Below, one piece after another: positions 3,152 through 17,507 of a DNA stretch of 59,214 nt; the stretch's first letter is position 1, and each line of letters starts with the position of its first letter. The stretch spans positions 1 through 59,214 of the forward strand of contig JBAQFY010000352.1 in NCBI GenBank assembly GCA_049287505.1, in the 5' to 3' direction. Under the pieces are notes generated by a model. That model had not been told where the DNA came from. It did not search any database and was given only the letters and a program-made list of their open reading frames with translations. This DNA is from Sedimentisphaerales bacterium. GTDB taxonomy: Bacteria > Planctomycetota > Phycisphaerae > Sedimentisphaerales > Anaerobacaceae. Position numbers and translations under genes: made by a program.

Positions 3152-5719
3152 TTATGGTCCAGAAACAATATTCTTCAATATCGTGAACTGCAAGTCGAAC
3201 ACTTTCCGCAGCTCGTCATCGGGAACAACATCACCTGTAACACCCATATAGGCATCTGCAAATCGGGAGCCGAACCCAATGACGGTTACAGTCCCCTTGC
3301 CGTGACGGACTTTTGCGGCCACCGGCGTGTTTTCCACCCACATTATAGGTTCTCCTCCTTCTATCTGAAAGGCTGAGTCAATTTTAATTATAGGCCAGCC
3401 TTCAGGTGCTTTTAGCTGGCCATTAATGCGCGTGCTTTGATTCACATTCAGGCCAAACGGATAAAGCAAGCTGTTTGCAGTTGACTCCGTGTTCTCAGGT
3501 GAATCCAGGATGAGGACTTTTCCACCTGATGCGACATAATTGACCAGCTCCTCTCGGAAATCGCTTTTGACGGTCAGATGTGGATGTGTAAATACGAGAA
3601 CATCACCAGACATTGTGTTTATGCCACTTTTCCGAGAGGTGAAGTAACCGAGTCGGAGAATCCACCGCTCGAAAATCCCGAATCCTTCTATCTTTCCAGC
3701 TATGAACCCGCTTTGGGAGAGAGGCGCGTCACACACCGTACGATCGACCACAACTTCGACCATGGGCCGAACCGCTTTTGGAAGAGGCATAGAATACCGG
3801 TGAATTGCTCGTGTACTCACTGCTGCAATCGACCAGCCGAATACCCCTGCGCTGATCACAACTAACCAGGCCACATTCGGCCTCCGGCAAAGCGCCAGCC
3901 CGCCGGTAGTGAGCAAAATCCCCAAAAGGATTAGCAATATCCGGAGAGGGTAAGGGAAGTTGCGGTGATTAAGCCATTCGAGCATGCCAAGCATTAACTC
4001 AGCCTTTCCAGGCTCAAAGGTTGCGAAATTGGAAAAGACAGTCGAATCAGTAAAAGCGACAACGCGGCCGGCACCGTGATGTGTTGTCAATAATTGCACG
4101 AAAGCACCATACCGCATTTCTGCTTTGTCTTCGACCTGTGGATAGAAATTACCTGCGTGGTAATCAGCCAATAGATTTTTCAGGCCTGTGGAACGAATGA
4201 CCGCCCGGCCAAGACTTCTTCCAGGATTGATAGAGCAGGAGACCGCGAAGTTGAACGGGGGCATGCTTTGAATTATTGGGTGCGGGACTAATGGTAAGTT
4301 GTAGAGCTGAGTATAAATTGTATCGATGTCAAACAGACAGTCGTAACGAAAACTGAAACCGAAAATCTTCGCTACATCGTTTAGGTGTGTGCCTGTGTTG
4401 AAAACGTTCGTATGCTCACCCATGAGCAGCAGGCCCCCGCCCCGTTCAACAAATCGCTCTATTGCTTTTATTTCTTCCGGGTTATATCGTAAGGTCGGCA
4501 CCTTGACTACAAGCACATCACAATTCCGAACAGCGGCATCATCGAGGGAGGTATTGAGGCGGGACATATCGTAAAAGCGTGAGCAATAATCGTAAATACA
4601 GTAATAGTTGTATCCGGAATCATGCCCATACCAGTTCGTGTCGAAAGGCTTATCGGTGGGTTCCCAGGTCGAGTGAAATTCATCGACCATGACTCTGCCC
4701 TGCTTGCGTCGTCCCGGCGTATCCAGAAGCAAGCCCATAATCAATATGAAGCTTCCTGTAAAGAGCAGAACGATTGCTCCGATACGTTTGTTAAGCCTTA
4801 CGCCTGGTTCCGAAGCCCCCATGTCTGCTTTCGCAGACAAGCGTGGGGGCTGGCCACCGAACGGTGTATGTAAGAACCGGAGGCTTAGAAGAATTGGTCC
4901 CAGCAAAAAAACCGAAAGCAGCCATGGATTCCAAAATTGTTCCATCAGAGCCAGCTCTTCATCATATCCGGTCCGAAGCGCCCGATGCATAAAAATCGAT
5001 ATCAATATGGCTGCACGAACAAACAGCCAGGCGGCAGTTAATGTGACCAGAGCTACCAAACGATTCACCAGGCGCCATTTTTGTTTACCTTGCGGCTGTG
5101 TTATAGGTGTGCAAAGGCACAGCATTACAATCCCACCGACAAGAAAGGACAACGTAGCGGGGTCTAACAGCAGCTCCCAGGTAGCACCAAGAAGATGAAC
5201 GACTCTTGGTGAGTACAAGGCAAGGTTAGTACCGTCTAACGCTGTTTGGAAACCTAACAGCCGTGAGATTACATAGAGCAGGCCCGGCCAGGGCCATACA
5301 AGTTCGTGTGATTTTGCGGTGATGCATTCATAGCCGAGAATCGCCAGTGATTGCGCCAGTAAGATGATACCCACAAGGATAAGCGCCGATGCGAAGACTT
5401 TGGGCCAACGACGGGGAATCGGTACGGCACCAAGTACAAGTCCGACAAAGATAAGCAATGGCGCCACACGGTACAGCCACGGGGCCAAACAGATTGCAGG
5501 CAGCAACATTACTGCCCCCGCTGCTTCGCTTTTGCGAAGCAAAACGACGGGGGCTGCTGACTCAAGCGCTGTTGGTCTGCGAATGTCAACTCCTATAAAC
5601 AGTCCCGTTCCGGCCGCTACAAATATCGCCCATGCCAACCACTGAGCATCGTGGTAGTAGCTCAGTCCGAACAGCCACGAGGCACTCAATAACGCCAAGC
5701 CAATCCAGGGCTGTTTCAA
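3152..5719 (-). CDS. large polytopic membrane protein with two GldG/DUF4350-like (class I GATase-fold-like) domains, paralogue A
   Basis: 855 aa with ~8 N-terminal TM helices and a further TM around residue 590. Motifs DVLVVKVP...IERFVERGGGLLLMGEHTN and GAGRVVAFTDSTVFSN are repeated in weaker form near the C-terminus. 4-nt overlap with the upstream paralogue. Confidence 0.55.
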   Translation of the reverse strand: MKQPWIGLALLSASWLFGLSYYHDAQWLAWAIFVAAGTGLFIGVDIRRPTALESAAPVVLLRKSEAAGAVMLLPAICLAPWLYRVAPLLIFVGLVLGAVPIPRRWPKVFASALILVGIILLAQSLAILGYECITAKSHELVWPWPGLLYVISRLLGFQTALDGTNLALYSPRVVHLLGATWELLLDPATLSFLVGGIVMLCLCTPITQPQGKQKWRLVNRLVALVTLTAAWLFVRAAILISIFMHRALRTGYDEELALMEQFWNPWLLSVFLLGPILLSLRFLHTPFGGQPPRLSAKADMGASEPGVRLNKRIGAIVLLFTGSFILIMGLLLDTPGRRKQGRVMVDEFHSTWEPTDKPFDTNWYGHDSGYNYYCIYDYCSRFYDMSRLNTSLDDAAVRNCDVLVVKVPTLRYNPEEIKAIERFVERGGGLLLMGEHTNVFNTGTHLNDVAKIFGFSFRYDCLFDIDTIYTQLYNLPLVPHPIIQSMPPFNFAVSCSINPGRSLGRAVIRSTGLKNLLADYHAGNFYPQVEDKAEMRYGAFVQLLTTHHGAGRVVAFTDSTVFSNFATFEPGKAELMLGMLEWLNHRNFPYPLRILLILLGILLTTGGLALCRRPNVAWLVVISAGVFGWSIAAVSTRAIHRYSMPLPKAVRPMVEVVVDRTVCDAPLSQSGFIAGKIEGFGIFERWILRLGYFTSRKSGINTMSGDVLVFTHPHLTVKSDFREELVNYVASGGKVLILDSPENTESTANSLLYPFGLNVNQSTRINGQLKAPEGWPIIKIDSAFQIEGGEPIMWVENTPVAAKVRHGKGTVTVIGFGSRFADAYMGVTGDVVPDDELRKVFDLQFTILKNIVSGP

Positions 5720-8451
5720 TTTGCAACCTCCTGATTAGAATTATCCAACGCTGTTCCATTTTGTCCGGATTCAGGCCGGCTTTGCAGAGCCGGAGGAATC
5801 CACATCTCCTCGTCCCGCAATTGTGTGATGAACCACCGCCAAAAGTCGGCGTTCTCCCGCATACCTTCGAATGGCTCTCCTCCTTCCCATTCGAGATTCT
5901 TGTTCATTGCAAAACACGTATCCCCAATGACGACAACCTTTCCGGCTCCGAGCCGGCGCATAATGATAACCGGCAAATTATTTTTGCCGTATGTAATCAC
6001 CCTAGCACTTGGGTCGTTACAACTGACGGGCCAAGCTGCGTGTAAACGCACGAAGACTTGTTGGTCTCCTGAGCTGAGGTATGGAGACTTGAAGTGCCCC
6101 ATAGCTTCAGGCTCGGGAGGGTCGGGTCCGGAAGTACCAATATTAAAGCCAAAAAGCGAAAGCAGTGAACGGCTGGATTCTGCGCGTTCAAGCCCTACTG
6201 TAATAATAAATTTTCCGCCGTTAATCACGAAGTCCCTTATAGCCTCCTGCTCAGTCTTTGAGAATCCGCGCGAAGGTGCAATTGATACCAATAGGTCCGC
6301 CCGTTCAAGCCTTTCAGATGTCATTTCTGGAAGTAATAAAGTAAGATACCCGTTCCTCATAAGTGTAAGGATAAAGCCCCCAATGCCGTCAGGGCGCCAA
6401 GACTCCCCGCTGTTAGTCGGCAGGTGATACGTATCGATGTAAGCTAAGTTATTGGGGGACTTATATCGTCCATCAGGGAGAATCTCACCGGCATTGTGGC
6501 TGATAGAGGTAGATACGGCCAGTGAGCCTGCCAAGCCTATTGTTACCAGGATAACCTTCCACCCGCTGCGACGCATCGCGGCGAGCTGGCCTGTGTTCCA
6601 AATCAAAAGGCCGATGAGCAATCCACAGCTCAATATACCGAGGAGCTGCCGCCACGTCGGGTGCGCATTTCCGGAATCACCGGCCAGATAGCCGAACAGT
6701 CGCGAAGTGAAAACATGTGAGCTGACATTGATACCGTTCGTCAGGCTCGATGTGTCGCCGAACGCAATAACACGACCCTTACCCAGCGGCTGCTCGGCTA
6801 CGAGAATTATATCGCCGAGTTTCTCGCCTGGGTCATAGCGGCCGTTGCCCATCATAGCTCGGCTGCTTCCCTCGTCTCCCATGTCGGACCATCCCCACCG
6901 TCCGATTAACAACGGACGTGCCGGCCAGCTCGTCTCGAGAGAAGCGCCAATAACCACACCGAATTGGTTACTATCGTCGGGGACACCTGCTGTCGCGGGG
7001 TGAGTAATCGCCTCGTAAGACTGCAACCAGCCGCCAACCGCAAATGTGCCCGAATCGAACATGACTCGTATTGCAGTGGGCTCCAGCACTTCATTGAAGC
7101 GGTTGCTTCCGTTCTTGTCCCGGGTCGTATGCTCACCCATCACCAGAAGCGAGCCACCACGACGTACAAAGTCCCAGATTCGCTCCAACTGACCCTCGGC
7201 CCAAGGCTCATCAGGAAAAAGCAGGACCAAGGCATCGGCATCCTGAAGGTCATTGTCCGACAAGTCTGCCGAGATAAGACTGCTGGCACCGAGGCTTTCG
7301 ATAAAGACCGGAAGCATTCCATACATTCCGCTGGAGAGTCTGCCATACTGGCCGTGCTCCGGCTTGAGCCAGTTGAGGAATCCCTTCTCATAGAAAACAA
7401 TCTTTTTACCCTGGAGGTTCAATTTGGCTGGGTACAGCGCAATCATAATAGGCAAAAGGACAGCCAGAATAGGTGCTGCGGCCCACAGTGGATACTTGGT
7501 TCGGTTAGAGAGTGCAGGAGCATTTTTTACATTGCCTAAATTGTCTTCGGATAAGGCAGACCAGCGAAACATAGCTGCGGCGGTTAGCAAATGTATCACG
7601 CAAGCCAGTAGGGGCAGGTTCCACGGCACAGCTTTGTGGAACAGGCCCGCCCAGTGCCAACCTTCCTGCTCAGCCGGGCCGGCAACGCCGGCCGTGATCA
7701 AACCTGCCTTCGGCGGGGCTACTGCCGCAAGTAGTTGTGGAACGTATGACAATACGATTAGATAGCAGAGGTGACCGCTGAGGATTGCGATAAGGCCGTA
7801 GATTGCCCTTTTCCGTCTTGGCTGTGGGCTATAGGTCAGCCAGAGGGCCCAAAGCGCGGTCATAAGCACCAGGAAATCGAGGCCGGCAAATGTGGACCCG
7901 ACATACATCGATTGATGTGTGACAAGACCCCCAAGGTTTCCAATTACACGGCCGAGCATGTCGGCCATCGACCAGACCAGTGGTATGCACGTGCAAGCCG
8001 TGCGGTAAAGGCCAAAAACCATAACAGCAACAGATGAGACACGCAGGATTCTCTGCGTGTTTGGCTTGGATTTGAGCGCAAGAGAGGCCAGAACGAGAGA
8101 GACGCCCATTACATTGATGACAGGCAGGGGCGATGCTATCATATATATGGCCAGGCCAAGCGTTGCAAGTAAAGCTGCAAGGTTTTTCCTCCCTCGCCAG
8201 GGGAAGGGACGCTGCGCGAGGATTGCTACACCCAAAGCCGCCAACGTCAGTACCCGCCGCAGGGGATGCGCTAATAGGCCCGTTGAGCCGGCCGCAATCC
8301 AGGCAGCCGCCAGACCGGCGAGCGCTGCGACCAGGCCGAAGGCTTGTACCGGGTCAGACCCGCCTACGGCGGGCGGCCCCAGCTCCGCTGAGACCATAGC
8401 CGGGTTATCTGCAACTAATTCTTTGGATTTTCCTTGCTTATGTCGAATCAC
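5716..8451 (-). CDS. large polytopic membrane protein with two GldG/DUF4350-like domains, paralogue B
   Basis: 911 aa with the same architecture as 3152-5719: ADALVLLFPDEPW...DFVRRGGSLLVMGEHTT, GKGRVIAFGDTSSLTN, and a second module ADLLVSIAP...DFVINGGKFIITVG / GAGKVVVIGDTCFAMN. Confidence 0.55.
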   Translation of the reverse strand: MIRHKQGKSKELVADNPAMVSAELGPPAVGGSDPVQAFGLVAALAGLAAAWIAAGSTGLLAHPLRRVLTLAALGVAILAQRPFPWRGRKNLAALLATLGLAIYMIASPLPVINVMGVSLVLASLALKSKPNTQRILRVSSVAVMVFGLYRTACTCIPLVWSMADMLGRVIGNLGGLVTHQSMYVGSTFAGLDFLVLMTALWALWLTYSPQPRRKRAIYGLIAILSGHLCYLIVLSYVPQLLAAVAPPKAGLITAGVAGPAEQEGWHWAGLFHKAVPWNLPLLACVIHLLTAAAMFRWSALSEDNLGNVKNAPALSNRTKYPLWAAAPILAVLLPIMIALYPAKLNLQGKKIVFYEKGFLNWLKPEHGQYGRLSSGMYGMLPVFIESLGASSLISADLSDNDLQDADALVLLFPDEPWAEGQLERIWDFVRRGGSLLVMGEHTTRDKNGSNRFNEVLEPTAIRVMFDSGTFAVGGWLQSYEAITHPATAGVPDDSNQFGVVIGASLETSWPARPLLIGRWGWSDMGDEGSSRAMMGNGRYDPGEKLGDIILVAEQPLGKGRVIAFGDTSSLTNGINVSSHVFTSRLFGYLAGDSGNAHPTWRQLLGILSCGLLIGLLIWNTGQLAAMRRSGWKVILVTIGLAGSLAVSTSISHNAGEILPDGRYKSPNNLAYIDTYHLPTNSGESWRPDGIGGFILTLMRNGYLTLLLPEMTSERLERADLLVSIAPSRGFSKTEQEAIRDFVINGGKFIITVGLERAESSRSLLSLFGFNIGTSGPDPPEPEAMGHFKSPYLSSGDQQVFVRLHAAWPVSCNDPSARVITYGKNNLPVIIMRRLGAGKVVVIGDTCFAMNKNLEWEGGEPFEGMRENADFWRWFITQLRDEEMWIPPALQSRPESGQNGTALDNSNQEVAN

Positions 8452-8687
8452 TCGATGGATTATAACGAATATTATCTCATAAACAATCAGAAAAAATTAC
8501 TTACCCGCTGCGACGCGTCGCGGCGAGCGTGACAAGTGGTTTGGTGAATTGACCTTCGTTTTGCTATTCTCTACCGAAGGTATTTTACAATACCTTCTCG
8601 GAGAACCGGCGCCGGCAGAAAAAAACAACGCTCCCCGCAGTTAGCAAACTTATACCTTGGAGGGCACTTGACTAACTAAAAATGCCT

Positions 8688-8721
8688 GAACCCTTGCGTC
8701 AATATCCTGACGCAAGGGTTC
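8688..8721 (-). terminator. 14-bp perfect stem-loop downstream of the Cys/Pro-repeat gene (bidirectional terminator-like)
   Basis: gaacccttgcgtca (8688-8701), loop atatcc, tgacgcaagggttc (8708-8721). T-runs follow on both strands (aggcattttt on minus, ctatttttc on plus). Confidence 0.55.
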
Positions 8722-8760
8722 AAGCTCTATTTTTCAATATCTATTGTCCTGTCCCGTATG

Positions 8761-11700
8761 TCATCGCGCCTTTGCCAACAAAGGCTTTGCGATAACAGTA
8801 GGGGCCTGTACATCTATCGCCGGACATTCCGCCATGACAGTATAGTTCTTTGTCCCATTAAAGATGCACCCGATAATCGTCTCGAAGCAAGAAGTACATA
8901 TAGTTTGCATGACTATACATTGGGTAAATGAGGGCGGACATTGGGTAGATACGGGCGGACATTGGGTAGATACGGGCGGACATTCGGTCTCTACAGGGGG
9001 ACATTTGGTATCTACTGCTGGGCAGTTGGTCTGAGAGGCCGGACACTGCGTCTTCACAGGCAAGATCGTCTCGACCACACAGAGCGGGCACTTTGTCAAA
9101 GTAGGCGGACACCTCGTCAAAGCAGGCGGACATACGGTCGATACCGCCGGACACTGGGTTTGTACCTGTGGACATTCGGTCAATGTTGCCGGACACTGGG
9201 TTCGTACCTGTTGACATTCGGTCACTGTTGGCGGGCATTTTGTCTCAGCAGGAGGACATTCGGTCGATACCGCCGGACACTGGGTCTTCACAGGAGGACA
9301 CTGGGTTTGCACAGGAGGACACTGGGTTTGCACGACCGGGCAATTTGTTGATGAGATTGGACATACAGTCTTCTCAACAGGGCACTGAGTCTTCACAGGC
9401 GGGCATCGTGTCGATACAGTTGGGCACCTTGTATCTGTCGGCGGACATACGGTCGATGCCGCCGGACACTGAGTTTGCACAGGAGGACACTGGGTTTGCA
9501 CGACCGGGCAGTTTGTTGATGAGATTGGACATACTGTCTTCTCAACAGGGCACTGAGTCTTCATAGGCGGACATTGAGTGTTTACTGCCGTGCATTGAGT
9601 AGGTACAGGGGGACACTTAGATAGTACGGGTGGACACTTTGTCTCAGATATTGGACATTCAGTATCTACCGTGGGACACTGAGTCTTCGTAGGCGGACAT
9701 TGAGTGTTTACTGCCGTGCATTGAGTAGGTACAGGTGGACACTTTGACACCTCAGGGGGACACCTTGTCTGGGCTACAGGACATTTAGTATCTTGTCCCG
9801 GGCACTTTGTATCTGCCGGGGGACATTGGGTATCTACCACCGGGCACTTTGTATCCTGGGGTGGACATCGGGTCGGTACTGCCGGACACTGTGTCATCAT
9901 GGTCAAAGTTATTGGGCACTGGGTCGGTACAAGTGGACATTGTGTTGTTACGGCCGGACACACTGTCTCTACTGCTCGACATTCGGTAACTACCGCCGGG
10001 CACTGGGTCGGTACAGGAGGACACTTTGTAGGCTCTGATGGACATTTAGTATCCACTGCCGGACACTGAGTGCTCACAGGGGGACATTTTGTCTTTTCAA
10101 TATTGCACCTTGTCTCTAAAGGAGGACATTCAGTGTCTATTGCCGGGCACAAAGTCTCCCTGGGGGGACACCTTGTCTCTACCGCTGTGCACTGAGTAGG
10201 CACGGGTGGACACTTTGACAGCGCAGGGGGACACCTTGTCTCTAAAGGAGGACATTCGGTCTCCACTGGTGGGCACTTAGTATTAACGGGGGGACACTGG
10301 GTTTCTATGGCCGGACATTGCGTTTTCACGCCCTGACACATTGTAGGTACCAGTGAGCATTCAGTCTCTTTGGGAGGACAACTGGTCAAAAGAGGTGGAC
10401 ACTCAGTATCTACTGCCGGACACCGGGTCTGTACCGGGGGACATTTGGTTTGCTCTGCCGGACACTTTGTCGGCACAGGTGGACACTGTGTTTCAACAGC
10501 CGGGCACTGAGTTTGAGCTACCGGACAGGTGGTGTTGACCGGAGGGCACATTGTTACGGCGACACACTGGGTCTGTACGGCCGGACAGTGCGTTGCAACG
10601 ACCGGACATTGAGTGTTAGCCGGAGGACACTGGGTTGCAACAGCCGGGCACTGAGTTTGAGCTACCGGACACGTAGTGTTAACCGGAGGACACATTGTTA
10701 TGGCGACACACTGGGTTTGTACGGCCGGACACTGCGTTGCCACGACCGGACATTGAGTGTTAGCCGGAGGACACTGGGTTGCCACGGCCGGACATTGCGT
10801 TTGCACAACTGGACACTGGGTTGCTACGGTCGGACATTGCGTTGCAACGACCGGACACTGGGTAGCGCTACCCGGTCTGGAAGTGGCTTGTGGGATACTC
10901 TCGACGAATACTTCGTGGTCCTCGACCTCGCCATCGGGGGCTGGACCTTCTGGGCCTAAGCCGCCCTGTTTGCTGATTCGGAAACGGGCGAAGGTCCGTC
11001 CAACCATGGTACTATCGGGCACAAAAACCGGTATGGTGTATATACCAGCAGGTAAGAAACCGTCATATATCTTTTCAGAGGGCTGCCAGGTCATATCACT
11101 GTTAAAATCAATCCACGCCTGGACGACGCCACCACCTCCGCTAACCTCAAGTGTTAAGTTCACCGGCTGGCCCGGAATCAGCATTGGTATAGAAACCCCG
11201 TTTTCATCATCTTTGACGGCATTGTCATCACCGAGGGCATCCGGGTCCGGCTGGCCGTCCAGCTCACTTTCAGGCCGGTCGTTCTTGTCACCGAGCCAAG
11301 GACCGGCAATCACGTGATTGGCGCCGTTGGTAACGGCGAGCGTGGGGTAACCCGCTGCGACCACTCCCTCAGGTGCATCACCCCAGTCGTATTCGATTTC
11401 TCCCGGTTCTGTTTTTGGATAAATGAGGTAGTCCTCCGTCTCTCCATACAGGTATCCATCAGCCGGCCCGGAACCACCGCTCACTGCCGCGCCCACAACA
11501 GTTTCCCACGGCTGCAGTGATATTGTGATTCGCATCCACATCGGGTCCAGCTCTGCATCCGTCTGTGGATGCCAGCACATGAACTTAGGTGTGGTCAATA
11601 CGACTGAGCCGGCGAAGTTATTGGTAATACTCGCGTTTTGAACCGCCCATTCCGGCACGTTAACGCCATCAGGACATACCATAGTATCGTCCCAGTCGCC

Positions 11701-13413
11701 ATCACGATTCCAGTCAAACCAAACATTTAAATAAGCCGGATTGTCAAAGAGGGGATTGACGAAAGTTACCATGAAATCGAACGAAACTTCCTGGCAAGGG
11801 GGTAAAATCAACGATAGCTGGACACCATCGTCTCCTCCGTCCAAGTCAGATAAATCATCAAGAGGCACAAGATTATTCTTGATATCCTCGTCATACCCAA
11901 TATCCGCCTCACTTTCGTTTGTGACAATCTCGCCCAGATAAATAAAGGCGTCAGGCTGCCAATGAATTGGGCCGTATGGAGGAGAACCTGTCTGGTAAAC
12001 GGTTGGGTAGTTCGCCACAACCCCACTCGGATATGCGAGCATCGATGCCCCGGGGAAGCTATTAGAGCTGTCCGGTGCGTCGCCGAGGTCGTGTTTCCCC
12101 TGGCCTTCTTCGCCACCTGTAATTACAAATGCGAGATCGAGTGATTCACCCTTGTACTGGTGCTCTTTAGGATAGGTCAACGGAAACGAAAGGGGATTTC
12201 CAGGAAGGAAAAAGACGGCATCGTCATTCCACCGAAGTTTACGGGTAGTTGTTTTCCAGCCAAATTTATAGTTTTCATTGGCGCGCGGGAGCTCCTTAAC
12301 ACCGAGCCAATAGATAGTCCCTTCCTCTTGAACGAAGGGGTCTTCTTTGATGCAGAAGTTATACTGGTAGGCTTGTGTGTGATTGTCCTGTAAGTAGAGC
12401 TCTTTGGCCGGGTCGTACCAACTCTCCAAGCTATCATTAAGCTTGCGAACTGAATACTCGCCAGGTTTTAAGGTTCGACTCCAGAGCAGCTCACCCGGCA
12501 TGCTCCAGCCGCCCTCTATTGCCGGGATGTCCGAATAAATGCTGATTTCAAATGTCAAGCCGTCCGGTCCATCTGAGGGCAATACATCGTCCCGGAATGA
12601 GGCCCAGATGTGGATATCATTGATGGGCCCCGTAGCCGTGCACTTGAAATCATCCGCCAGATTGAGCAAGGAGATATCTAAATCCATTCCCGTAGAGCCG
12701 AGGTCAGGCAACTGGGGCCAGTGCATCTTGTACGCCTCGCCCGGATTCCAATCGCAATCGTTCTCGCATTCGATTTCTAACGTCATTTTGCCCAGGAAGT
12801 AGCCGGCTGGTCTGCCGTTAGCATCTATGATTGGAGTCTGGTCGTGGTTCTCGTAGCTATCGCATGGTGCCGGTGGCTTTTGTGTAATCACGCCGATGAG
12901 CCGCTTCGGCTCAGCCGCAAAGAAAGATTGTCCGAGGTCGGGCAGCTCAATGCGGAAGAACACGTCGAAGAAGCTGTCAGCCATGCCGGTTGGTGTGAAT
13001 GGCGGTATGTCCAGCACGCCCGGCGTGTTGTTAACCTGCTCCCTGATCTGGCCCAGTGAGGGTATGATGGAGTGGACGTGCAAGCGCACCTCACCCAACG
13101 ACGGATTCGTCCCCACCAGGTCCATTTCGACTATCTCCGTCCTGACTTCCTCCAGCCCGTCGTTGTCATCATCATCTGCGTCGCCCTCGTCTGGGCCCTC
13201 AAAATAGACGTGCTGTTTAATTGGACCGCTCAACTGCACTAACGCCACGTCGCCGGACGGGGTTAATAGCTCAATCTGGACCGATGGAGCAAAAATGTCA
13301 ACTTCCAATGCGGACTTATCCTGTGCACTTGCAAAGTGTCCTCCACCAAAGGCTACGATAAATGCCGTGGAGAGTAGTATGAGAAGTGTCGAATGCGGTT
13401 TAAACTTTTTCAT
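8761..13413 (-). CDS. giant secreted protein: N-terminal signal peptide, GEVED-type / GDAP...YPT modules, C-terminal ~93-unit C-P-x-x-x-T-x heptad array
   Basis: I place the start at ATG 13413 (MKKFKPHSTLLILLSTAFIVAFGGGHFASAQ) because GGAGGA lies 7 nt upstream. The ORF-track start at 13449 has no RBS. Motifs: YLYGETEDYLIYP, DGEVEDHEVFV, two DxGDAPD...YPT segments, then the heptads. Confidence 0.85.
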   Translation of the reverse strand: MKKFKPHSTLLILLSTAFIVAFGGGHFASAQDKSALEVDIFAPSVQIELLTPSGDVALVQLSGPIKQHVYFEGPDEGDADDDDNDGLEEVRTEIVEMDLVGTNPSLGEVRLHVHSIIPSLGQIREQVNNTPGVLDIPPFTPTGMADSFFDVFFRIELPDLGQSFFAAEPKRLIGVITQKPPAPCDSYENHDQTPIIDANGRPAGYFLGKMTLEIECENDCDWNPGEAYKMHWPQLPDLGSTGMDLDISLLNLADDFKCTATGPINDIHIWASFRDDVLPSDGPDGLTFEISIYSDIPAIEGGWSMPGELLWSRTLKPGEYSVRKLNDSLESWYDPAKELYLQDNHTQAYQYNFCIKEDPFVQEEGTIYWLGVKELPRANENYKFGWKTTTRKLRWNDDAVFFLPGNPLSFPLTYPKEHQYKGESLDLAFVITGGEEGQGKHDLGDAPDSSNSFPGASMLAYPSGVVANYPTVYQTGSPPYGPIHWQPDAFIYLGEIVTNESEADIGYDEDIKNNLVPLDDLSDLDGGDDGVQLSLILPPCQEVSFDFMVTFVNPLFDNPAYLNVWFDWNRDGDWDDTMVCPDGVNVPEWAVQNASITNNFAGSVVLTTPKFMCWHPQTDAELDPMWMRITISLQPWETVVGAAVSGGSGPADGYLYGETEDYLIYPKTEPGEIEYDWGDAPEGVVAAGYPTLAVTNGANHVIAGPWLGDKNDRPESELDGQPDPDALGDDNAVKDDENGVSIPMLIPGQPVNLTLEVSGGGGVVQAWIDFNSDMTWQPSEKIYDGFLPAGIYTIPVFVPDSTMVGRTFARFRISKQGGLGPEGPAPDGEVEDHEVFVESIPQATSRPGSATQCPVVATQCPTVATQCPVVQTQCPAVATQCPPANTQCPVVATQCPAVQTQCVAITMCPPVNTTCPVAQTQCPAVATQCPPANTQCPVVATHCPAVQTQCVAVTMCPPVNTTCPVAQTQCPAVETQCPPVPTKCPAEQTKCPPVQTRCPAVDTECPPLLTSCPPKETECSLVPTMCQGVKTQCPAIETQCPPVNTKCPPVETECPPLETRCPPALSKCPPVPTQCTAVETRCPPRETLCPAIDTECPPLETRCNIEKTKCPPVSTQCPAVDTKCPSEPTKCPPVPTQCPAVVTECRAVETVCPAVTTQCPLVPTQCPITLTMMTQCPAVPTRCPPQDTKCPVVDTQCPPADTKCPGQDTKCPVAQTRCPPEVSKCPPVPTQCTAVNTQCPPTKTQCPTVDTECPISETKCPPVLSKCPPVPTQCTAVNTQCPPMKTQCPVEKTVCPISSTNCPVVQTQCPPVQTQCPAASTVCPPTDTRCPTVSTRCPPVKTQCPVEKTVCPISSTNCPVVQTQCPPVQTQCPPVKTQCPAVSTECPPAETKCPPTVTECQQVRTQCPATLTECPQVQTQCPAVSTVCPPALTRCPPTLTKCPLCVVETILPVKTQCPASQTNCPAVDTKCPPVETECPPVSTQCPPVSTQCPPSFTQCIVMQTICTSCFETIIGCIFNGTKNYTVMAECPAIDVQAPTVIAKPLLAKAR
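8899..10857 (-). repeat. 21-bp-period coding tandem repeat (heptad CPxxxTx, ~93 units)
   Basis: I split the translated sequence by hand at each Cys, giving 93 Cys-initiated units. All but five are exactly 7 residues, and the consensus is C-P-[PAV]-V-x-T-[QKE]. Plus-strand shadow ORFs show the same period (GRYGRTLGRYGRTFG). Confidence 0.95.
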
Positions 13414-13848
13414 GAGTGTGTCCTCCTTAAAAATATACACAAACCCCAACGAAAAGCTGAGGTCTGCCTACCAACAACCACAGGAATTCCTCCTCAGTTG
13501 CCACACCGAGTTTCAGTTCCAATAATATATAACATCTATCAAGAAAAAACAAGAATTTTTATAAATTTTTTCAAAGCTTTTTTAGCAGGATTAGTTACAA
13601 AGATATGGATTTAACGTCTCCTTATCAATATTTTGACACATCTACACTATCTTCCCGGTTTGAAAATCAGGCTTTTCAGGGATTTTTAGCATAACGCGGC
13701 TCCTGGAGGTGCTTTCACGGGTGATAAACAACTGATACATTCAAGGAATTTTCAGAACAAAGCCTGTGACACAGCAACTTCTGCTATCTGAAATATCACG
13801 TATTTTGCAGGCCTTACGAGGTGAATTGATAGGCGAGATTCAATATGA

Positions 13849-15654
13849 TTACTGTAAAGATTGGCTTTTCTGAAGCAGACCGCCCTTGACTGAATCGACC
13901 GTAACATTAAATTTGCCTTTTCCCTTGATGATAAACTGTACACGCTCTGCGCTCATACCGTCGATAGTGCTCAGCTCCACTCGTTCGGGACGACGTTTGA
14001 CGGCCTGGACGCGCTTGAAGTATTGGTCCGTAACCTGCCCGCCCGAGAGGGCACGAATGTCATCGCCCTGAATAGAGACAATATCCGGCGAACTGATATG
14101 ATGAGCCACATCCTGAGCCGTTCTGGTGGGAATCAGACGCTGGTTCTCGATGGTTACCCAAATCTTAAATAAGTTTTCGGCAAGCTTCTCAACATTGACC
14201 TCGCTGATTTTGAGCAGCGGCATCATATCGGTATGAAAGAGCGTAAAAGCCATATTTCGGTGAAGCTCCTCTTCGAGCAAAAACGAAGGCGGCAGACGGC
14301 CCCACTCTTTTTTCTCTCCTCCAATTTCAATTTTGCCATAGGTCGGGTGCTCATATTCCTGCCAGGGGACAACGCCTTCGCCCATAAGCACATATTCGAT
14401 AAATTCGGCTTCCTGCTCATCCGAAGGCGAATCCGGGGTTTTGTACAGGTTTTTGGATGTCCACAACTCATTTGTAAAGGAAAGAATGCCGCGGCCTCCA
14501 TAAAGCCAATCAAGCTCGCTTCCCCAGGTTGTATAGAGGTCCTTCCATATAATCATCGAGCGGTAAAAGGGGATTATTTTTTCTCCCCGCTCGGCGATAA
14601 GTCCCAGCACTCTATCGTCCTGGCTTTTCATTTCACCGCCTTCGCGGCCCGGAGTTCGCAGAATCATACCACCGGAGTTGTGATACGACTGGGCCGCTGC
14701 GATATTGGGATGGGCCAGAACGAACTCGGACACCGCACGGGTCTCCGGCTGCGAGAAGGGATAATCTTTGGCCCCGTATTGAATATAATTCGGCTGCCAA
14801 TCGTAAGCCCAGTTACGATTCATGTCGTAACCGCCGCGGGAGTCTTCATTGATTTGGCCATCGCCATCATTGTCGATTCCTTCCCAGCCAAGCAAGGTAT
14901 ATTCTCCGGGTTCGTCCGGTTTAGCTCTGACCATTAAGTATTCGGGATAATCGGGATGCAGCTTGTACCGTCCGTGGGGGTCTTTTTTGCGCATCATTGT
15001 GATAAAGCCATCTCCGTTGAGGTCATCGCAATCGTCTTCATCGGCGAGGCCATCTCTATCATTGTCTGTTGGCTCAAGGCCCGACCTTGCGAAACCGCCT
15101 CTATGAAGCCAGGAATCGCGACCATCGGGATTGATGCTCGGCAATAGATAGAAAACCCTGTCATCGAGCAATGCCGTTACTTTTTCAAGCTTTCCATACT
15201 GGTGGCAAAGATACCAGGCCGTATAGGCTACTGTTTCGCCGGCCTGGACCTCGTTGCCGTGAATGTTACCGTCAATATACATTCCCGGCTTGCGGTCGGG
15301 GTCGCCGACGTTAAGTGCCGTAACTTCCAGGCACCAAATATCCCGGCCTTCGGATGATTTTCCGATAGAATAGAGCCGGGTCAGCTCGGGGAAGGCTTTG
15401 TGAATTCGGGCGAGGATTGCCCCCAGCCCGGTATGGTCGTAAAACCGGTTCCATTCCACCCGGACTTTGCGTTCCGCCGAGATGCCTAGTGCGGGAAACG
15501 AATGCTTGGCCGGATTTGCAGCCTTCGGTTTGCGAACACGAACCTGAGCGAGGCCTGTTTCAGCAAGTATTAGGACAAGAAATGAAGAAAGCAAAACAGC
15601 AATTTGCATTTTAAATTTTATTTTCTTCTTCATAAGAAAGACCTTTGATATCAT
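13849..15654 (-). CDS. M14-family zinc carboxypeptidase, secreted
   Basis: Signal peptide, then YIDGNIHGNEVQAGE (HxxE zinc motif) and a third ligand in SYHNSGG. Contains an acidic Ca-binding-like insert, DNDRDGLADEDDCDDLNGDGF. The start could instead be the internal ATG at 15633. Confidence 0.8.
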   Translation of the reverse strand: MISKVFLMKKKIKFKMQIAVLLSSFLVLILAETGLAQVRVRKPKAANPAKHSFPALGISAERKVRVEWNRFYDHTGLGAILARIHKAFPELTRLYSIGKSSEGRDIWCLEVTALNVGDPDRKPGMYIDGNIHGNEVQAGETVAYTAWYLCHQYGKLEKVTALLDDRVFYLLPSINPDGRDSWLHRGGFARSGLEPTDNDRDGLADEDDCDDLNGDGFITMMRKKDPHGRYKLHPDYPEYLMVRAKPDEPGEYTLLGWEGIDNDGDGQINEDSRGGYDMNRNWAYDWQPNYIQYGAKDYPFSQPETRAVSEFVLAHPNIAAAQSYHNSGGMILRTPGREGGEMKSQDDRVLGLIAERGEKIIPFYRSMIIWKDLYTTWGSELDWLYGGRGILSFTNELWTSKNLYKTPDSPSDEQEAEFIEYVLMGEGVVPWQEYEHPTYGKIEIGGEKKEWGRLPPSFLLEEELHRNMAFTLFHTDMMPLLKISEVNVEKLAENLFKIWVTIENQRLIPTRTAQDVAHHISSPDIVSIQGDDIRALSGGQVTDQYFKRVQAVKRRPERVELSTIDGMSAERVQFIIKGKGKFNVTVDSVKGGLLQKSQSLQ

Positions 15655-15674
15655 AAAATACTTTATCTACTAAT

Positions 15675-17507
15675 TCATTCAGCGTTTATCAGCTCGATGG
15701 TACCGTTTACCTGCCCGGCTAAAATCGAGATGACTTTGAAATCAATCTTCTTGCGGTCGGAAGCCCGGATTATATACCGCACCTCGTCCATCCCGCCGCT
15801 TCCCTTTAACACCGGCAGATTAGTAATTCTGGTGCCGGAAAGGAAAAATTCGTCGTCCAGCTCTATTATTAAACGCGTCGGATAAACCTCTTGTGTTGTC
15901 TGGCCATGTGCGAGTGAGGTGGGCAGGAAGCCGGTGTTTTCCACCTGAATCTTGACCTCAAATACAGATTGGCCCAGATGGCGGCTCTCGACCTTTCTGA
16001 TACCGATGAGCGGAAGCCTTTGCGCTACTTTTATCAGGAAATCAGTATGTTTGGAAGCAATTTGTTCAATCATCTGGGCCGGAGGGTTAGTCAGGGCGAA
16101 AGAAGAATATCCGCCGACCTCGACACGTTGATTCGGAAAATCAGGATGCTCGATTGCCTGCCATTCAACGAATGCCTGCGGCGCATGTTCATCAAACCAT
16201 TTTAGCTCCTTCCGCTCTTTTTCATTGCGTTTGTCTTCGTCATCCTTCGGTTTCTTATCTTTTTTCTCATCTTCAAGCTCGGGTTCCGGGCTTGTTTCTT
16301 TTTCCTGCTCAGCCTGTTCATTTTCAGAGGCGTCTTCAGCCTCTTCGACACCTTCTTTTGTCTTTTCTTTCTTTTTTTCGTCGGCTTTTGCAAGCTCGAC
16401 AGCGAGCGCTACAGACCAGGGTTTAGCCGCAAGCGACAGGCGGCCACGGTGGAAATACATCCAGTCGCTAAAGGTGCCGGGACACGAAGTATCTTCAAGC
16501 TCTTTGCTTAATCCAAGCGATTTCCGATAGAGCTCGCCCATCGCTTTATAGTAGCCCAAGTCATCCTCATCAATCGCAGTCATTGGCTTTCGGCGAGGGG
16601 GTTGTGGTGCGCCTTTTGGGTTTTTTAGGAGATTGTCAGCAGCGCCGTAGGTCAGAATAATACCGATATTTGGGTGGTCGATTATAAAATCCGCAAGAGC
16701 CCGCGTTTCGGCCTCGCTTACTTGATGTACGCCGGCGTCTGGAGCAAAGAAATCGAAATTGTACGGGAAGTTGCGGTTAAAGTTAATGCCGCCGAGGCCA
16801 TCTTCGTTCCATAACTTGTCGTGGTCGTTATCGATTCCCTCCGTGAGGTAACGCCAGACACCAACTTCGCTTTTGAGAGGGTCGGCCTTGATAAGAAGCC
16901 GGTCGTCCGCAGGGTCGAGGATATATTCGCCTTCAGGGTCCTCGATACGCATCCAGGAGATTAGTCCGTCGCCGTTAAGGTCTTCAGGATTATCTTCATC
17001 TATCAGTCCATCATGGTCGTCATCGACCGGTTTGTCGCTGCGGCTCGTTTCAAATTTCGGCTCGTTAAAGAAATGCTCTGAGGCATCCGGGTTGAGCCGC
17101 GGGAGGACATAAACCGTTGTTGTCTGAAGAAGTTTGGTAATTTCTGCATCGGTTTCGTATTGCTCAATTAAATGCTTTATCCAGGAGACAGCTATGGATG
17201 AACCTATTAGGTCATTACCTTCAATACCTGCTACAACCAATATGGCCGGGCGGGTTTTGCGGTCCTGCTCAGGACCCTTGCCCACTTCAACGAGCCAGAC
17301 CTTGCGTTTGCCTATTGAGCGGGCAATGCCGTCAGCTCGCACAAGGTTGGGGTTCTGTTCGGCAAGAGAGGCCAGAAGTTTGGCAAGGGATTTATTGTTG
17401 TGATACTCTGTAGCAGGGGCAACTGTAACGGGCATTGTGAACAGGCTTACGAGTGCTAATAAAAACACAAATGGCTTAACTCCAAATCGGAAAAAGTACA
17501 GGGACAT
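15675..17507 (-). CDS. M14-like paralogue lacking zinc ligands (probable pseudo-peptidase) with a K/E/D-rich insert
   Basis: Collinear with the neighbouring M14 gene, sharing DDDHDGLIDEDNPEDLNGDGL and the HPNI block. However, IHGNE is replaced by IEGND and SYHNSGG by LTYGAAD. An ~80-aa insert reads KADEKKKEKTKEGVEEAEDASENEQAEQEKE...DDEDKRNEKERKE. Confidence 0.7.
   Translation of the reverse strand: MSLYFFRFGVKPFVFLLALVSLFTMPVTVAPATEYHNNKSLAKLLASLAEQNPNLVRADGIARSIGKRKVWLVEVGKGPEQDRKTRPAILVVAGIEGNDLIGSSIAVSWIKHLIEQYETDAEITKLLQTTTVYVLPRLNPDASEHFFNEPKFETSRSDKPVDDDHDGLIDEDNPEDLNGDGLISWMRIEDPEGEYILDPADDRLLIKADPLKSEVGVWRYLTEGIDNDHDKLWNEDGLGGINFNRNFPYNFDFFAPDAGVHQVSEAETRALADFIIDHPNIGIILTYGAADNLLKNPKGAPQPPRRKPMTAIDEDDLGYYKAMGELYRKSLGLSKELEDTSCPGTFSDWMYFHRGRLSLAAKPWSVALAVELAKADEKKKEKTKEGVEEAEDASENEQAEQEKETSPEPELEDEKKDKKPKDDEDKRNEKERKELKWFDEHAPQAFVEWQAIEHPDFPNQRVEVGGYSSFALTNPPAQMIEQIASKHTDFLIKVAQRLPLIGIRKVESRHLGQSVFEVKIQVENTGFLPTSLAHGQTTQEVYPTRLIIELDDEFFLSGTRITNLPVLKGSGGMDEVRYIIRASDRKKIDFKVISILAGQVNGTIELINAE

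What the first reader, a model, noticed from the sequence alone, without database searches (positions are those of the whole stretch)
8899..10857. About 93 consecutive C-P-x-x-x-T-x heptads: an extreme Cys/Pro/Thr tandem array in a 1550-aa secreted protein
Residues ~853-1505 of the protein form an almost uninterrupted 7-residue repeat (CPAVATQ, CPPVPTK, CPVVDTQ ...), which places one cysteine every seventh residue about 93 times. Only five units deviate in length. The N-terminal half is a normal globular secreted region with GEVED-type modules. I know of no characterised fold with this heptad. Regular Cys spacing suggests a disulfide-laddered or metal-binding fibre, or a Pro-rich extended stalk. 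Planctomycete-type envelopes have been described as cystine- and proline-rich, so this could be a structural envelope or fibre protein. The 21-bp DNA period also makes the gene prone to length variation.
Basis: partly seen in the sequence, partly recalled or inferred. Interest (0 to 1): 0.65.

Follow-up and report, generated by a model that had tools for sequence, protein, structure and literature searches.

The report
Cysteine-proline-threonine heptad stalk protein
A secreted 1550-residue planctomycete protein does end in about 90 back-to-back Cys-Pro-x-x-x-Thr-x units; hundreds of related proteins share this undescribed repeat, which is predicted to be an extended thread rather than a fold and usually travels with two dedicated membrane proteins, so it looks like a new kind of stalk for envelope proteins.

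Summary
The gene (window 8761-13413, minus strand) encodes a signal peptide, a beta-rich head (DUF7901 plus two GEVED domains), 664 residues of C-P-x-x-x-T-x heptads, and a conserved C-terminal box. Of 96 Cys-to-Cys intervals, 89 are exactly 7; shuffling gives 5.5.

It is not an artefact. Of the 89 DNA units, 83 are distinct. Intact orthologues at 94% and 90% identity carry 68 and 60 heptads. About 80 of the 120 best relatives share the architecture, with 10-98 heptads.

C1, P2 and T6 are fixed family-wide (100, 89 and 97%) and the other positions vary.

No Pfam, NCBIfam, PDB or literature match covers the repeat. AlphaFold2 gives the head high confidence and the array pLDDT ~30.

New here:
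- The gene is followed by two 11-TM GldG/DUF4350-like membrane proteins in 12 distinct loci, and never where the head lacks heptads.
- The array also occurs without a head, sometimes ending in a dockerin.
- Heptad-bearing genomes lack DsbB, and 13 of 14 lack VKOR, which argues against an enzyme-made disulfide ladder.

Best reading: a novel extended stalk or tether module of an envelope protein system. The role of the cysteines is unresolved.

The parts
8761..13413 (-). Whole gene: 1550-aa secreted protein (stop codon 8761-8763)
   Evidence: ORF. The ATG at 13413 matches the starts of orthologues P0002 and P0003. It is the only DUF7901 gene and the only heptad gene in the 4.68-Mb genome.
13324..13413 (-). 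Signal peptide, aa 1-30 (MKKFKPHSTLLILLSTAFIVAFGGGHFASA|QD)
   Evidence: Read from the sequence: basic n-region, hydrophobic segment 10-28, and A-S-A before the predicted cut. No lipobox Cys.
12727..13323 (-). N-terminal domain of unknown family, aa 31-229; present only in the closest relatives
   Evidence: No Pfam hit. Shared with P0002, P0003 and P0008-P0015, and absent from P0093-type members.
12118..12726 (-). DUF7901 domain (PF25470)
   Evidence: E 2.8e-48, full profile 1-205. One search gives these coordinates.
10894..11733 (-). Two GEVED domains (PF20009). The first is about 11422-11733. The second ends at the GEVED motif, aa 828-832 (10918-10932). Boundaries are approximate.
   Evidence: 2 stretches, best at aa 573-676 of the 1562-aa frame. 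One search places the motif.
8866..10857 (-). C-P-x-x-x-T-x heptad array, aa 853-1516: 92 Cys-to-Cys units, of which 87 are exactly 7 residues (89 of 96 when the C-terminal cap is included), preceded by one Cys-less unit RPGSATQ
   Evidence: Family consensus.
8764..8865 (-). C-terminal cap (irregular Cys-rich segment) and the conserved C-terminal box CPAIDVQAPTVIAKPLLAKAR (8764-8826)
   Evidence: The box C-P-x-[IVL]-[DE]-x-x-[CAS]-P-[TS]-[IVL], followed by a short amphipathic, basic end, is conserved in 56 of 120 relatives screened. The end is predicted helical in P0093. It matches no NCBIfam sorting signal.
8684..8725 (-). Terminator-like hairpin 36 nt after the stop codon (19-bp stem, -35 kcal/mol, then UUUUUAG)
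   Evidence: A hairpin sits at the same place in orthologous locus L001 with different stem letters, and also in L015.
5716..8451 (-). Linked gene A: 911-aa membrane protein with 11 predicted TM helices and two periplasmic GldG/IFT52-GIFT/DUF4350-like domains
   Evidence: Domains and model. Linkage.
3152..5719 (-). Linked gene B: 855-aa paralogue of A (23% identity over 510 aa) that overlaps A by 4 nt
   Evidence: Found directly after A in the 12 distinct loci.

Best explanation
The array is a previously undescribed low-complexity stalk or tether module. It is a stiff, extended, hydrophilic thread of Cys-Pro-x-x-x-Thr-x units, up to about 200 nm long if fully extended. In this protein it connects a beta-sandwich head (DUF7901 plus GEVED) to a short conserved C-terminal box. 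The protein is exported by Sec. I infer that its C-terminal box is recognised, held or processed by the periplasmic GldG-like domains of the two co-encoded 11-TM proteins A and B, so that the head is presented at a distance from the membrane, as in a fibrillar adhesin. Shown: the periodicity, its selection, the family, the lack of a predicted fold, the genomic linkage and the portability of the module. Inferred: the extended conformation, the anchoring role of the box and of A/B, and the surface location. The fixed Cys and Thr probably stabilise or cross-link the thread, but their chemistry is not resolved.
For: Periodicity: 89 of 96 intervals are 7 residues, against 5.5 expected.

Selection on the protein rather than recent DNA amplification:
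- 83 of 89 DNA units are distinct, and all four Pro and all four Thr codons are used at the fixed positions.
- Across 3535 heptads of 78 proteins, C1 is 100%, P2 89% and T6 97%.
- Between orthologues, positions 1, 2 and 6 are 92-99% kept and the other positions 60-77%.

Thread-like character:
- AF2 with a 68-sequence alignment gives the head pLDDT 75-95 and the 35 heptads of P0093 pLDDT ~30 with no secondary structure.
- The array has 19% Pro, 16% Thr, 12% Val, only 4 Gly and 3 aromatic residues (2 Phe, 1 Tyr) plus 1 His, and balanced charge.

Stalk position and behaviour:
- The array begins 13 residues after the GEVED motif. Stalk domains begin 12-17 residues after that motif in CshA-type fibrillar adhesins (PMC10952558).
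- Copy number is free to vary, 10-102 units in relatives, with indels mostly of whole blocks of heptads, as expected of a spacer.
- The module is portable: it follows other domains, precedes other domains, or precedes a dockerin.

Linkage to A/B:
- A and B lie directly downstream in 12 distinct loci, and in 0 of 65 loci whose head lacks heptads.
- A is present in 11 of 14 heptad-positive genomes against 1 of 36 negative genomes, and in 3 further heptad-positive genomes where it is not adjacent.
- The GIFT domains of A are periplasmic by the positive-inside rule.
- DUF4350/GldG-like domains have been predicted to be extracytoplasmic parts of secretion or membrane-remodelling complexes (PMC5898192).
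Against: - Low pLDDT does not prove an extended state. It could hide a fold, an oligomer or a modified structure that AF2 has never seen.
- A pure spacer does not need an invariant Cys and a Thr that Ser rarely replaces (2% of heptads).
- Head-less proteins (signal peptide plus heptads, with or without a dockerin) show that the array has a function of its own.
- No outer-membrane-crossing or known anchoring domain is present, and the tail is too short to span a membrane, so surface exposure is unproven.
- The role of A/B rests on linkage only. In one complete chromosome the two are 1.9 Mb apart, and locus L004 has the box without adjacent A/B.
Confidence: 0.5

Rival explanations
1. The array itself is the product: a thiol-rich structural polymer. 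It would be laid down in the envelope or matrix and cross-linked chain to chain through its regularly spaced cysteines, by disulfides formed without Dsb or by bridges through metals. Heads, dockerins or the C-terminal box would only determine where it is attached.
For: - Head-less secreted arrays exist in several genomes: L087, L089 (about 90 heptads plus a dockerin), L091, L092 and L094.
- Cys is 100% conserved at a spacing of about 2.2 nm.
- A strong terminator-like hairpin after the gene fits an abundant structural subunit followed by low-level machinery.
- Cys-rich proteins are known in planctomycete walls (YTV proteins, PMC12673574).
Against: - There is no DsbB in any of the 14 heptad-bearing genomes, and VKOR in only one.
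- Only 3.5% of sampled genomes of the phylum carry the array, so it is not a general wall component.
- Copy number differs by a third between 90-94% identical orthologues, which is odd for a lattice with fixed geometry.
- In this gene the array sits exactly where an adhesin stalk sits.
Confidence: 0.2
2. The array is a scaffold for enzymatic modification. Options are Cys1-to-Thr6 thioether bridges (the same i, i+5 spacing as the Cys-Thr bridge I recall in the SCIFF/ranthipeptide thermocellin), methyl-lanthionine from Thr6 to the next Cys, or O-glycosylation of Thr6 giving a mucin-like rod.
For: - Thr is kept at 97% with Ser at only 2%, and Cys at 100%. Such residue-specific conservation in a region with no predicted fold suggests chemistry rather than packing.
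- A and B are uncharacterised membrane proteins with conserved polar residues in the TM part and many invariant acidic residues in the periplasmic domains.
- The GIFT/GATase1-like domains of A resemble modules found in glycosidases; members of the A family also give weak Pfam hits to the OST48 N-terminal domain.
Against: - No radical-SAM, LanM/LanB, YcaO or glycosyltransferase gene is conserved next to the gene in six inspected neighbourhoods.
- Known thioether maturases act on small leader-bearing peptides in the cytoplasm, not on a 1550-aa Sec substrate (from memory).
- A and B match no enzyme family in Pfam or NCBIfam.
Confidence: 0.12
3. The array is a metal- or haem-binding polymer. About 90 solvent-exposed thiolates, mostly in Cys-Pro dipeptides like the haem-regulatory CP motif, would sequester metals or haem, or stick the cell to metal-sulfide minerals in anoxic sediment.
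For: - There are 97 Cys in 678 residues, and 79 of the 89 exact heptads start with the dipeptide CP.
- The genomes lack the disulfide-forming machinery, so the thiols are probably reduced.
- The closest named relatives are Sedimentisphaerales and Phycisphaerae MAGs, lineages known as anaerobes (established knowledge).
Against: - There are no CxC, CxxC or His partners, and the spacing of 7 with a rigid Pro-rich backbone is poor for chelation.
- The conserved Thr and Pro are not explained.
- No metal or haem transport gene is conserved nearby.
Confidence: 0.08
4. The array folds into a compact disulfide-laddered solenoid, like the beta-helix of insect antifreeze proteins, which AF2 fails to see.
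For: Regular Cys spacing and T-x-C triplets recall the TCT ladders of the Tenebrio antifreeze protein (from memory).
Against: - AF2 gives pLDDT ~30 with no strands over 280 residues despite a 68-sequence alignment.
- There is no 14- or 21-residue super-period.
- With 19% Pro and Pro at position 2 of nearly every unit, regular beta-coils are disfavoured.
- DsbB is absent from all 14 heptad-bearing genomes and VKOR from 13.
- No PDB sequence relative exists.
Confidence: 0.04
5. The array is an assembly or annotation artefact, or a decaying gene.
For: Short-read MAG contig. The other frames are also open across the repeat.
Against: - Units are diverse at the DNA level.
- Intact syntenic orthologues exist at 94% and 90% identity.
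- Hundreds of independent assemblies carry the array, including a complete chromosome.
- Conservation of C, P and T is position-specific.
Confidence: 0.01

Closest known systems
Fibrillar adhesins with a GEVED module (CshA type; Barringer et al. 2023, PMC10952558)
   Same: Signal peptide, then a beta-rich head ending in a GEVED domain, then a long repetitive stalk that starts 12-17 residues after the GEVED motif (here 13), then a C-terminal element. Repeat number varies between relatives.
   Different: The stalk is not made of folded repeat domains. It is 7-residue low-complexity units with an invariant Cys. There is no LPXTG or other known anchor. The host is a diderm planctomycete. The head carries DUF7901, not a CshA NR2 domain. 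Adhesion is untested.
YTV cysteine-rich cell-wall proteins of Planctomycetia (Hieu 2008, cited in PMC12673574)
   Same: Cys- and Pro-rich secreted proteins of the phylum, which are the molecular basis of the old 'cystine/proline-rich envelope' observation.
   Different: Pfam YTV is not matched. YTV is reported as exclusive to class Planctomycetia, whereas this family sits in Phycisphaerae-type MAGs. The repeat and spacing are different.
Pro/Thr-rich linkers of glycoside hydrolases, and Ser-Asp or Ser-rich repeat stalks of Gram-positive adhesins (from memory)
   Same: Low-complexity, extended, hydrophilic spacers of variable length, rich in Pro and Thr. Some need glycosylation for protease resistance.
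   Different: None of them has a strict 7-residue register or a cysteine in every unit.
C-terminal sorting signals with a dedicated polytopic membrane partner (PEP-CTERM/exosortase EpsH, PMC1569441)
   Same: A short conserved C-terminal motif on secreted proteins co-occurs in genomes, and often in loci, with multi-TM proteins.
   Different: The box has no TM helix and no PEP/LPXTG-type motif. A and B are not exosortase, sortase or rhombosortase homologues, and no NCBIfam sorting model matches. No catalytic Cys is conserved in their TM part. Sorting is only a hypothesis.
GldG / DUF4350 / IFT52-GIFT proteins
   Same: Proteins A and B carry two such domains each, predicted periplasmic as in GldG.
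   Different: A and B each score far below the NCBIfam cut-off of their only hit (A: GldG TIGR03521, 17 bits against 390; B: an exo-beta-D-glucosaminidase model, 25 bits against 1500). They have 11 TM helices instead of GldG's two. No GldA/GldF ABC partner is in the inspected loci.

Membership tests
Fibrillar adhesin (signal peptide, adhesive tip, repeated stalk, anchor) | [quoted passage not shown] | tested here: met
   Signal peptide read from the sequence. GEVED PF20009 at 78 bits against a cut-off of 24.4.
Fibrillar adhesin (signal peptide, adhesive tip, repeated stalk, anchor) | Stalk built of tandem folded domains from the known stalk-domain set | tested here: not met
   No Pfam domain lies in aa 853-1550. 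AF2 finds no fold. The repeat unit is 7 residues.
Fibrillar adhesin (signal peptide, adhesive tip, repeated stalk, anchor) | Known cell-wall or membrane anchor (LPXTG, autotransporter barrel, T9SS CTD and similar) | tested here: not met
   Pfam and NCBIfam find nothing in the last 179 aa. There is no TM-length hydrophobic segment at the C-terminus.
Fibrillar adhesin (signal peptide, adhesive tip, repeated stalk, anchor) | Adhesive activity | not testable with these tools
   Foldseek on the head gives only generic multi-beta-sandwich matches.
YTV planctomycete cell-wall proteins (Pfam YTV) | Repeated YTV-motif domain detected by the Pfam model | tested here: not met
   The Pfam scan at E <= 1 lists only DUF7901 and GEVED. 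A single 'NYTV' near the C-terminus is not a repeat.
Disulfide-laddered beta-helix (insect antifreeze type) | Regular beta-coil of 12-14 residues with an internal disulfide per coil | tested here: not met
   AF2 predicts no strands at pLDDT ~30. There is no 14-residue super-period. DsbB is absent from all 14 heptad-bearing genomes and VKOR from 13.
Metallothionein-like metal-binding proteins | Clustered CxC or CxxC motifs | tested here: not met
   Cys-to-Cys gaps are 7 in 89 of 96 cases, and none is 1 or 2 residues.
Ranthipeptide/SCIFF-type thioether peptides | Small leader-bearing precursor next to a radical-SAM/SPASM maturase | tested here: not met
   This is a 1550-aa Sec substrate. No radical-SAM gene is adjacent in six neighbourhoods; the only one seen, in L004, lies 8 kb away beside a QueC-family gene. 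Only the C-x4-T spacing resembles this family.
PEP-CTERM, LPXTG, GlyGly-CTERM and related sorting signals | Signature motif followed by a TM helix and a basic cluster, detected by NCBIfam models | tested here: not met
   NCBIfam gives 0 hits at E <= 1 for the whole protein and for the last 179 aa. The tail has only about 10 hydrophobic or amphipathic residues.
New family proposed here: DUF7901-GEVED-(CPxxxTx)n-box proteins | At least 10 heptads, followed by C-P-x-[IVL]-[DE]-x-x-[CAS]-P-[TS]-[IVL] and a short basic end | tested here: met
   The window protein has 89 exact heptads and ends in CPAIDVQAPTVIAKPLLAKAR. Of 120 relatives screened, 56 meet a stricter screen of at least 30 heptads plus the box.
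New family proposed here: DUF7901-GEVED-(CPxxxTx)n-box proteins | Two GldG-like 11-TM genes directly downstream | tested here: met
   Window 5716-8451 and 3152-5719. The same arrangement holds in 12 distinct other loci.

The most novel reading that the evidence does not exclude
The heptad array, its C-terminal CPx(I/V)(D/E)xxCPT(V/I) box and the two 11-TM GldG-like proteins form a previously unknown envelope fibre system of anaerobic Planctomycetota. The membrane pair would sort, anchor or polymerise thiol-studded threads of about 200 nm. These threads would be covalently or metal cross-linked through their cysteines, and would carry heads, dockerins or nothing. This would be a new class of bacterial surface fibre and a new C-terminal sorting signal with its machinery.
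Probability: 0.2. Interest if true: 0.85.

Novelty: new variant of a known kind. Interest (0 to 1): 0.6.

Why it matters
- The repeat has no entry in Pfam, NCBIfam or the PDB, and I found no paper on it. Yet it occurs in hundreds of proteins of uncultured Phycisphaerae-type planctomycetes, with up to about 100 units each.
- It would add a new type of stalk to the catalogue of bacterial surface-protein architectures: a 7-residue, cysteine-bearing, apparently unfolded thread rather than beads of folded domains.
- Its strict linkage to two uncharacterised GldG/DUF4350-like membrane proteins gives the first functional handle on that widespread domain family outside gliding motility. It also points to a possible new sorting or anchoring route in diderm bacteria.
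- One invariant Cys per 2.2 nm in organisms without DsbB/VKOR raises a clear chemical question: free thiol, metal, thioether or non-enzymatic disulfide. Mass spectrometry on a recombinant fragment can answer it.
- The old report of cystine- and proline-rich planctomycete envelopes gains a second, lineage-specific candidate besides the YTV proteins.

Tried and rejected
- **Earlier findings.** The search by sequence failed and the search by words returned nothing.
- **Family libraries.** NCBIfam gives no hit for the protein or its tail. Pfam has nothing over the array.
- **PDB sequence search.** Nothing for the array or the head, at E up to 10 and 0.1 respectively.
- **Foldseek.** The head model gives only generic multi-beta-sandwich hits with TM below 0.15. 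For protein A, Foldseek recognises the GIFT/GATase1-like domains but nothing for the TM part in the top 50.
- **TM part of A and B.** Lenient Pfam scans of the TM halves, and of all 56 family members of A, found nothing.
- **Literature.** DUF7901/PF25470 gives 0 papers. Searches on heptad, cysteine and planctomycete terms found nothing relevant.
- **14-residue super-period** (alternating CPP/CPA units). The lag correlations are at most 0.15, so I rejected it.
- **Mis-binned contig as the reason same-class genomes lack the array.** Composition fits the bin, with tetranucleotide r of 0.88 and 0.94, so this is not supported.
- **Conserved modifying enzymes near the gene.** None found. The M14 peptidases upstream are shared only with the closest relative.
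- **Neighbourhoods of head-less arrays.** Nothing is conserved there.
- **Second structure job.** I spent it on protein A instead of a heptad-only segment, because the first job already covered 35 heptads with an alignment.
Full report
**1. What is in the sequence**

The finding lies in one long ORF on the minus strand, 8761-13449 from a TTG. Orthologues begin at MKKFKPHS, so the real start is the ATG at 13413 and the protein has 1550 residues.

The first 30 residues are a typical Sec signal peptide, with a basic n-region, a hydrophobic core and ASA before the predicted cut (read from the sequence). Pfam finds DUF7901 (E 3e-48) and two GEVED stretches (E 8e-22) in the first 850 residues and nothing after that.

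From residue 853 to 1516 (window 10857 down to 8866) the protein is a heptad array:
- The region holds 97 Cys.
- Of 96 Cys-to-Cys intervals, 89 are exactly 7 residues.
- Seventy-nine units are strict C-P-x-x-x-[TS]-x-C.
- Shuffling the same residues 20,000 times gives 5.5 +/- 2.3 such intervals, with a maximum of 16.
- Tandem Repeats Finder sees periods of 21 bp and its multiples, including 144-, 168- and 126-bp higher-order duplications at 86-91% identity.

**2. It is real and under selection**

The other evidence leaves little room for an artefact.
- The 89 exact heptads are encoded by 83 different 21-nt units, with mean pairwise identity of 57%.
- All four Pro codons and all four Thr codons are used at the fixed positions.
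- Two intact orthologues, 94% and 90% identical in the head, carry 68 and 60 heptads in a syntenic locus.
- Their differences from the window protein are mostly insertions or deletions of whole blocks of heptads (62, 42, 42 and 28 residues). The odd 6- and 10-residue units are conserved in place.
- Between these orthologues the head is 94% and 90% identical and the array 81%.
- Inside the array, positions 1, 2 and 6 are 92-99% conserved and positions 3, 4, 5 and 7 only 60-77%.

The register C1-P2-T6 is therefore what selection keeps.

**3. A large family**

A search with the head found 2224 proteins. Of the best 120, 78 have at least 10 heptads, with a range of 10-98 and a median of 42.

Position frequencies over 3535 heptads:

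| Position | Residues |
|---|---|
| 1 | C 100% |
| 2 | P 89% |
| 3 | P 32%, A 25%, V 17% |
| 4 | V 43% |
| 5 | E 25%, D 11%, Q 11% |
| 6 | T 97% (S 2%) |
| 7 | Q 29%, K 22%, R 18%, E 12% |

Ninety per cent of units are exactly 7 residues, and there is no 14-residue super-period.

The family ends in a conserved box, C-P-x-[IVL]-[DE]-x-x-[CAS]-P-[TS]-[IVL], followed by about ten amphipathic residues and a basic end. In the window protein it reads CPAIDVQAPTVIAKPLLAKAR.

Sources name the members only as 'DUF7901', 'GEVED domain-containing' or 'hypothetical', from Planctomycetota, Phycisphaerae, Phycisphaerales, Sedimentisphaerales and (by automated labels) Pirellulales MAGs.

A DNA pattern for four strict heptads hits 14 of 401 genomes sampled across the phylum, in 12 of 288 genera. 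The reversed-pattern control hits one genome. The hits are concentrated in six families besides the window's own.

A heptad-only query against 1.84 billion representative proteins finds 577 clusters at E <= 0.001. Of the best 149 sequences retrieved, 109 have at least 5 strict heptads.

The window's genome has a single such gene.

**4. No fold**

Neither the array nor the head has a sequence relative in the PDB, and NCBIfam has no model.

I ran AlphaFold2 on a full-length member, P0093 (1177 aa, 35 heptads), with a 68-sequence alignment.
- The beta-rich head domains get pLDDT 75-95.
- The whole array gets about 30, with no secondary structure.
- The last 11 residues form a short helix at pLDDT ~55.
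- Foldseek on the head returns only generic multi-beta-sandwich proteins.

The composition fits a stiff, hydrophilic, PPII-like or extended thread: 19% Pro, 16% Thr, 12% Val, four Gly, three aromatic residues (2 Phe, 1 Tyr) plus one His, and 38 basic against 40 acidic residues. At 0.31-0.34 nm per residue, 664 residues would span 206-226 nm, with one Cys about every 2.2 nm. The extended state is an inference.

**5. Position in the protein**

The array starts with a Cys-less unit, RPGSATQ, 13 residues after the GEVED motif. Barringer et al. defined GEVED as the module between the adhesive tip and the stalk of CshA-type fibrillar adhesins, and found stalk domains starting 12-17 residues after the motif (PMC10952558). 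The heptads occupy the stalk position.

**6. A conserved gene module**

Directly downstream lie two overlapping paralogous genes, A (5716-8451, 911 aa) and B (3152-5719, 855 aa; 23% identical to A).

Features of A and B:
- Each has DUF4350/ABC_transp_aux/IFT52-GIFT matches.
- The AF2 model of A (pLDDT 77, pTM 0.80) shows an N-terminal helical bundle, a GIFT/GATase1-like domain, two more helices and a second such domain. The soluble domains match the IFT52 N-terminal domain (TM 0.6-0.7) and the middle domain of GH42 enzymes.
- The positive-inside rule gives a consistent 11-TM topology with both soluble domains periplasmic.
- No family matches the TM part.

Evidence for the linkage:
- A and B follow the heptad gene in the window and in 12 distinct other loci, down to 53-59% identity.
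- None of 65 loci that encode DUF7901/GEVED heads without heptads has them.
- A profile of A is found in 11 of 14 heptad-positive genomes and in 1 of 36 negative genomes.
- It is also found in three further heptad-positive genomes where it is not adjacent. One of these is a complete chromosome, where the two lie 1.9 Mb apart.
- Many A homologues come from the same contigs as heptad proteins, for example locus tags JXA96_07680 and JXA96_07685.

The genes upstream are not conserved.

A 19-bp terminator-like hairpin follows the heptad gene. It recurs, with different stem letters, in the closest orthologous locus. This suggests a strongly expressed gene followed by lower-level partners.

Makarova et al. 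predicted DUF4350/GldG-like proteins to be extracytoplasmic parts of secretion or membrane-remodelling complexes (PMC5898192).

**7. The module is portable**

In other genomes of the phylum the same heptads occur without the head:
- signal peptide, about 90 heptads, then a type I dockerin (L089, 24 bits);
- signal peptide, 25 heptads, then a dockerin (L092, 36 bits);
- signal peptide plus heptads only (L087 with two genes, L091, L093, L094).

Representatives in the large library also show arrays at the N-terminus of other domains. Their neighbourhoods are unrelated.

So the array works as a spacer in many contexts and also has some function of its own.

**8. Cysteine chemistry**

The window's genome (93% complete) has no DsbB and no VKOR. 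Its only Thioredoxin_4 (DsbA-like) hit is below the cut-off. Thirteen other heptad-bearing genomes have no DsbB, and a single one has VKOR. The tool's control genomes were detected.

A ladder of enzyme-made disulfides is therefore unlikely. The thiols may be free, metal-bound, oxidised without enzymes, or modified.

The spacing rules out metallothionein-type clusters. The C1-to-T6 distance equals that of the Cys-Thr thioether I recall from SCIFF/ranthipeptides, but no maturase is conserved nearby and the substrate is a large Sec protein. The near-absolute preference for Thr over Ser remains unexplained.

**9. Interpretation**

The best-supported reading (confidence about 0.5) is a new low-complexity stalk or tether module in an envelope protein built like a fibrillar adhesin. 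Its C-terminal box would work with the periplasmic domains of A and B.

What is shown: the periodicity, its selection, family membership, the absence of a predicted fold, the linkage and the portability. What is inferred: the extended conformation, anchoring, and exposure at the surface.

The main rival (0.2) is that the array itself is a cross-linked structural polymer. The head-less genes favour this. Patchy distribution, free copy-number variation and missing oxidases speak against it.

The minor rivals are:
- a scaffold for enzymatic modification (0.12);
- a metal- or haem-binding polymer (0.08);
- a hidden disulfide-laddered solenoid (0.04);
- an artefact (0.01).

**10. Comparison and novelty**

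The protein works like a fibrillar adhesin but fails two defining features: a stalk of folded domains and a known anchor. It is not a YTV protein. Its tail is not a known sorting signal.

I rate it a new variant of a known kind. The novelty lies in the repeat itself, the C-terminal box and the linked membrane pair.

Limits:
- there are no expression or read data;
- there is no cultured carrier among the 23 same-order and same-class genomes sampled;
- taxon names come from relatives, not from the window.

Noticed in passing
window 8684-8725 (-); L001 about 14190-14235; L015 about 5885-5935: A strong terminator-like hairpin (19-bp stem, -35 kcal/mol, then a U-run) sits 36 nt after the heptad gene's stop, before gene A. 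The orthologous locus L001 has a hairpin at the same place with different stem letters (compensatory changes), and L015 has a hairpin plus a U-run.
   Followed up: partly
window 8866-10857 compared with 10858-13413: Cys codon usage flips between the two parts: TGT 67 and TGC 22 in the array, but TGC 7 and TGT 1 in the head. This hints at descent of the units from a TGT-bearing founder, or at concerted evolution.
   Followed up: no
L089 5608-9366 (-); L092 7789-8700 (-): Head-less proteins made of a signal peptide, 25-90 CPxxxTx heptads and a C-terminal type I dockerin, in two other Planctomycetota genomes.
   Followed up: partly
L022-L034 (for example L023, L030, L033): DUF7901/GEVED heads without heptads occur in Verrucomicrobiota, KSB1, Cytophagia and Chloroflexota, and in archaeal MAGs (Methanobacteriota, ANME-2c). 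The head is widely exchanged across domains of life.
   Followed up: no
L015 3117-5720 (+): A Phycisphaerales MAG has 102 strict heptads in an 1862-aa frame, the longest array seen. A and B lie directly downstream.
   Followed up: partly
proteins P0298, P0342, P0361, P0376: The library holds other repeats with Cys every 7 residues but different sequences (CAPxxSQ, CLVEALQ, CEGGTTD, CEVTYIG). They may be unrelated, or wrong-frame translations of tandem DNA.
   Followed up: no
window 13849-17507 (-): Two tandem M14 carboxypeptidase genes lie upstream of the heptad gene. They are shared only with the closest relative (L001), so they are not part of the conserved module.
   Followed up: partly
window 19000-58000: A prophage-like region with TerL (21352-22860), an SPP1-type portal (40824-42407) and an SU10-type major capsid protein (43081-44235). 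Non-phage cargo lies between them: an FAD oxidoreductase of 1124 aa at 22962-26336.
   Followed up: no
genomes of the same order and class: None of the 23 sampled same-order or same-class genomes (all at least 97% complete) has the array or protein A, although the contig fits its bin by composition. The module may have been acquired laterally, or its lineage may be poorly sampled.
   Followed up: partly
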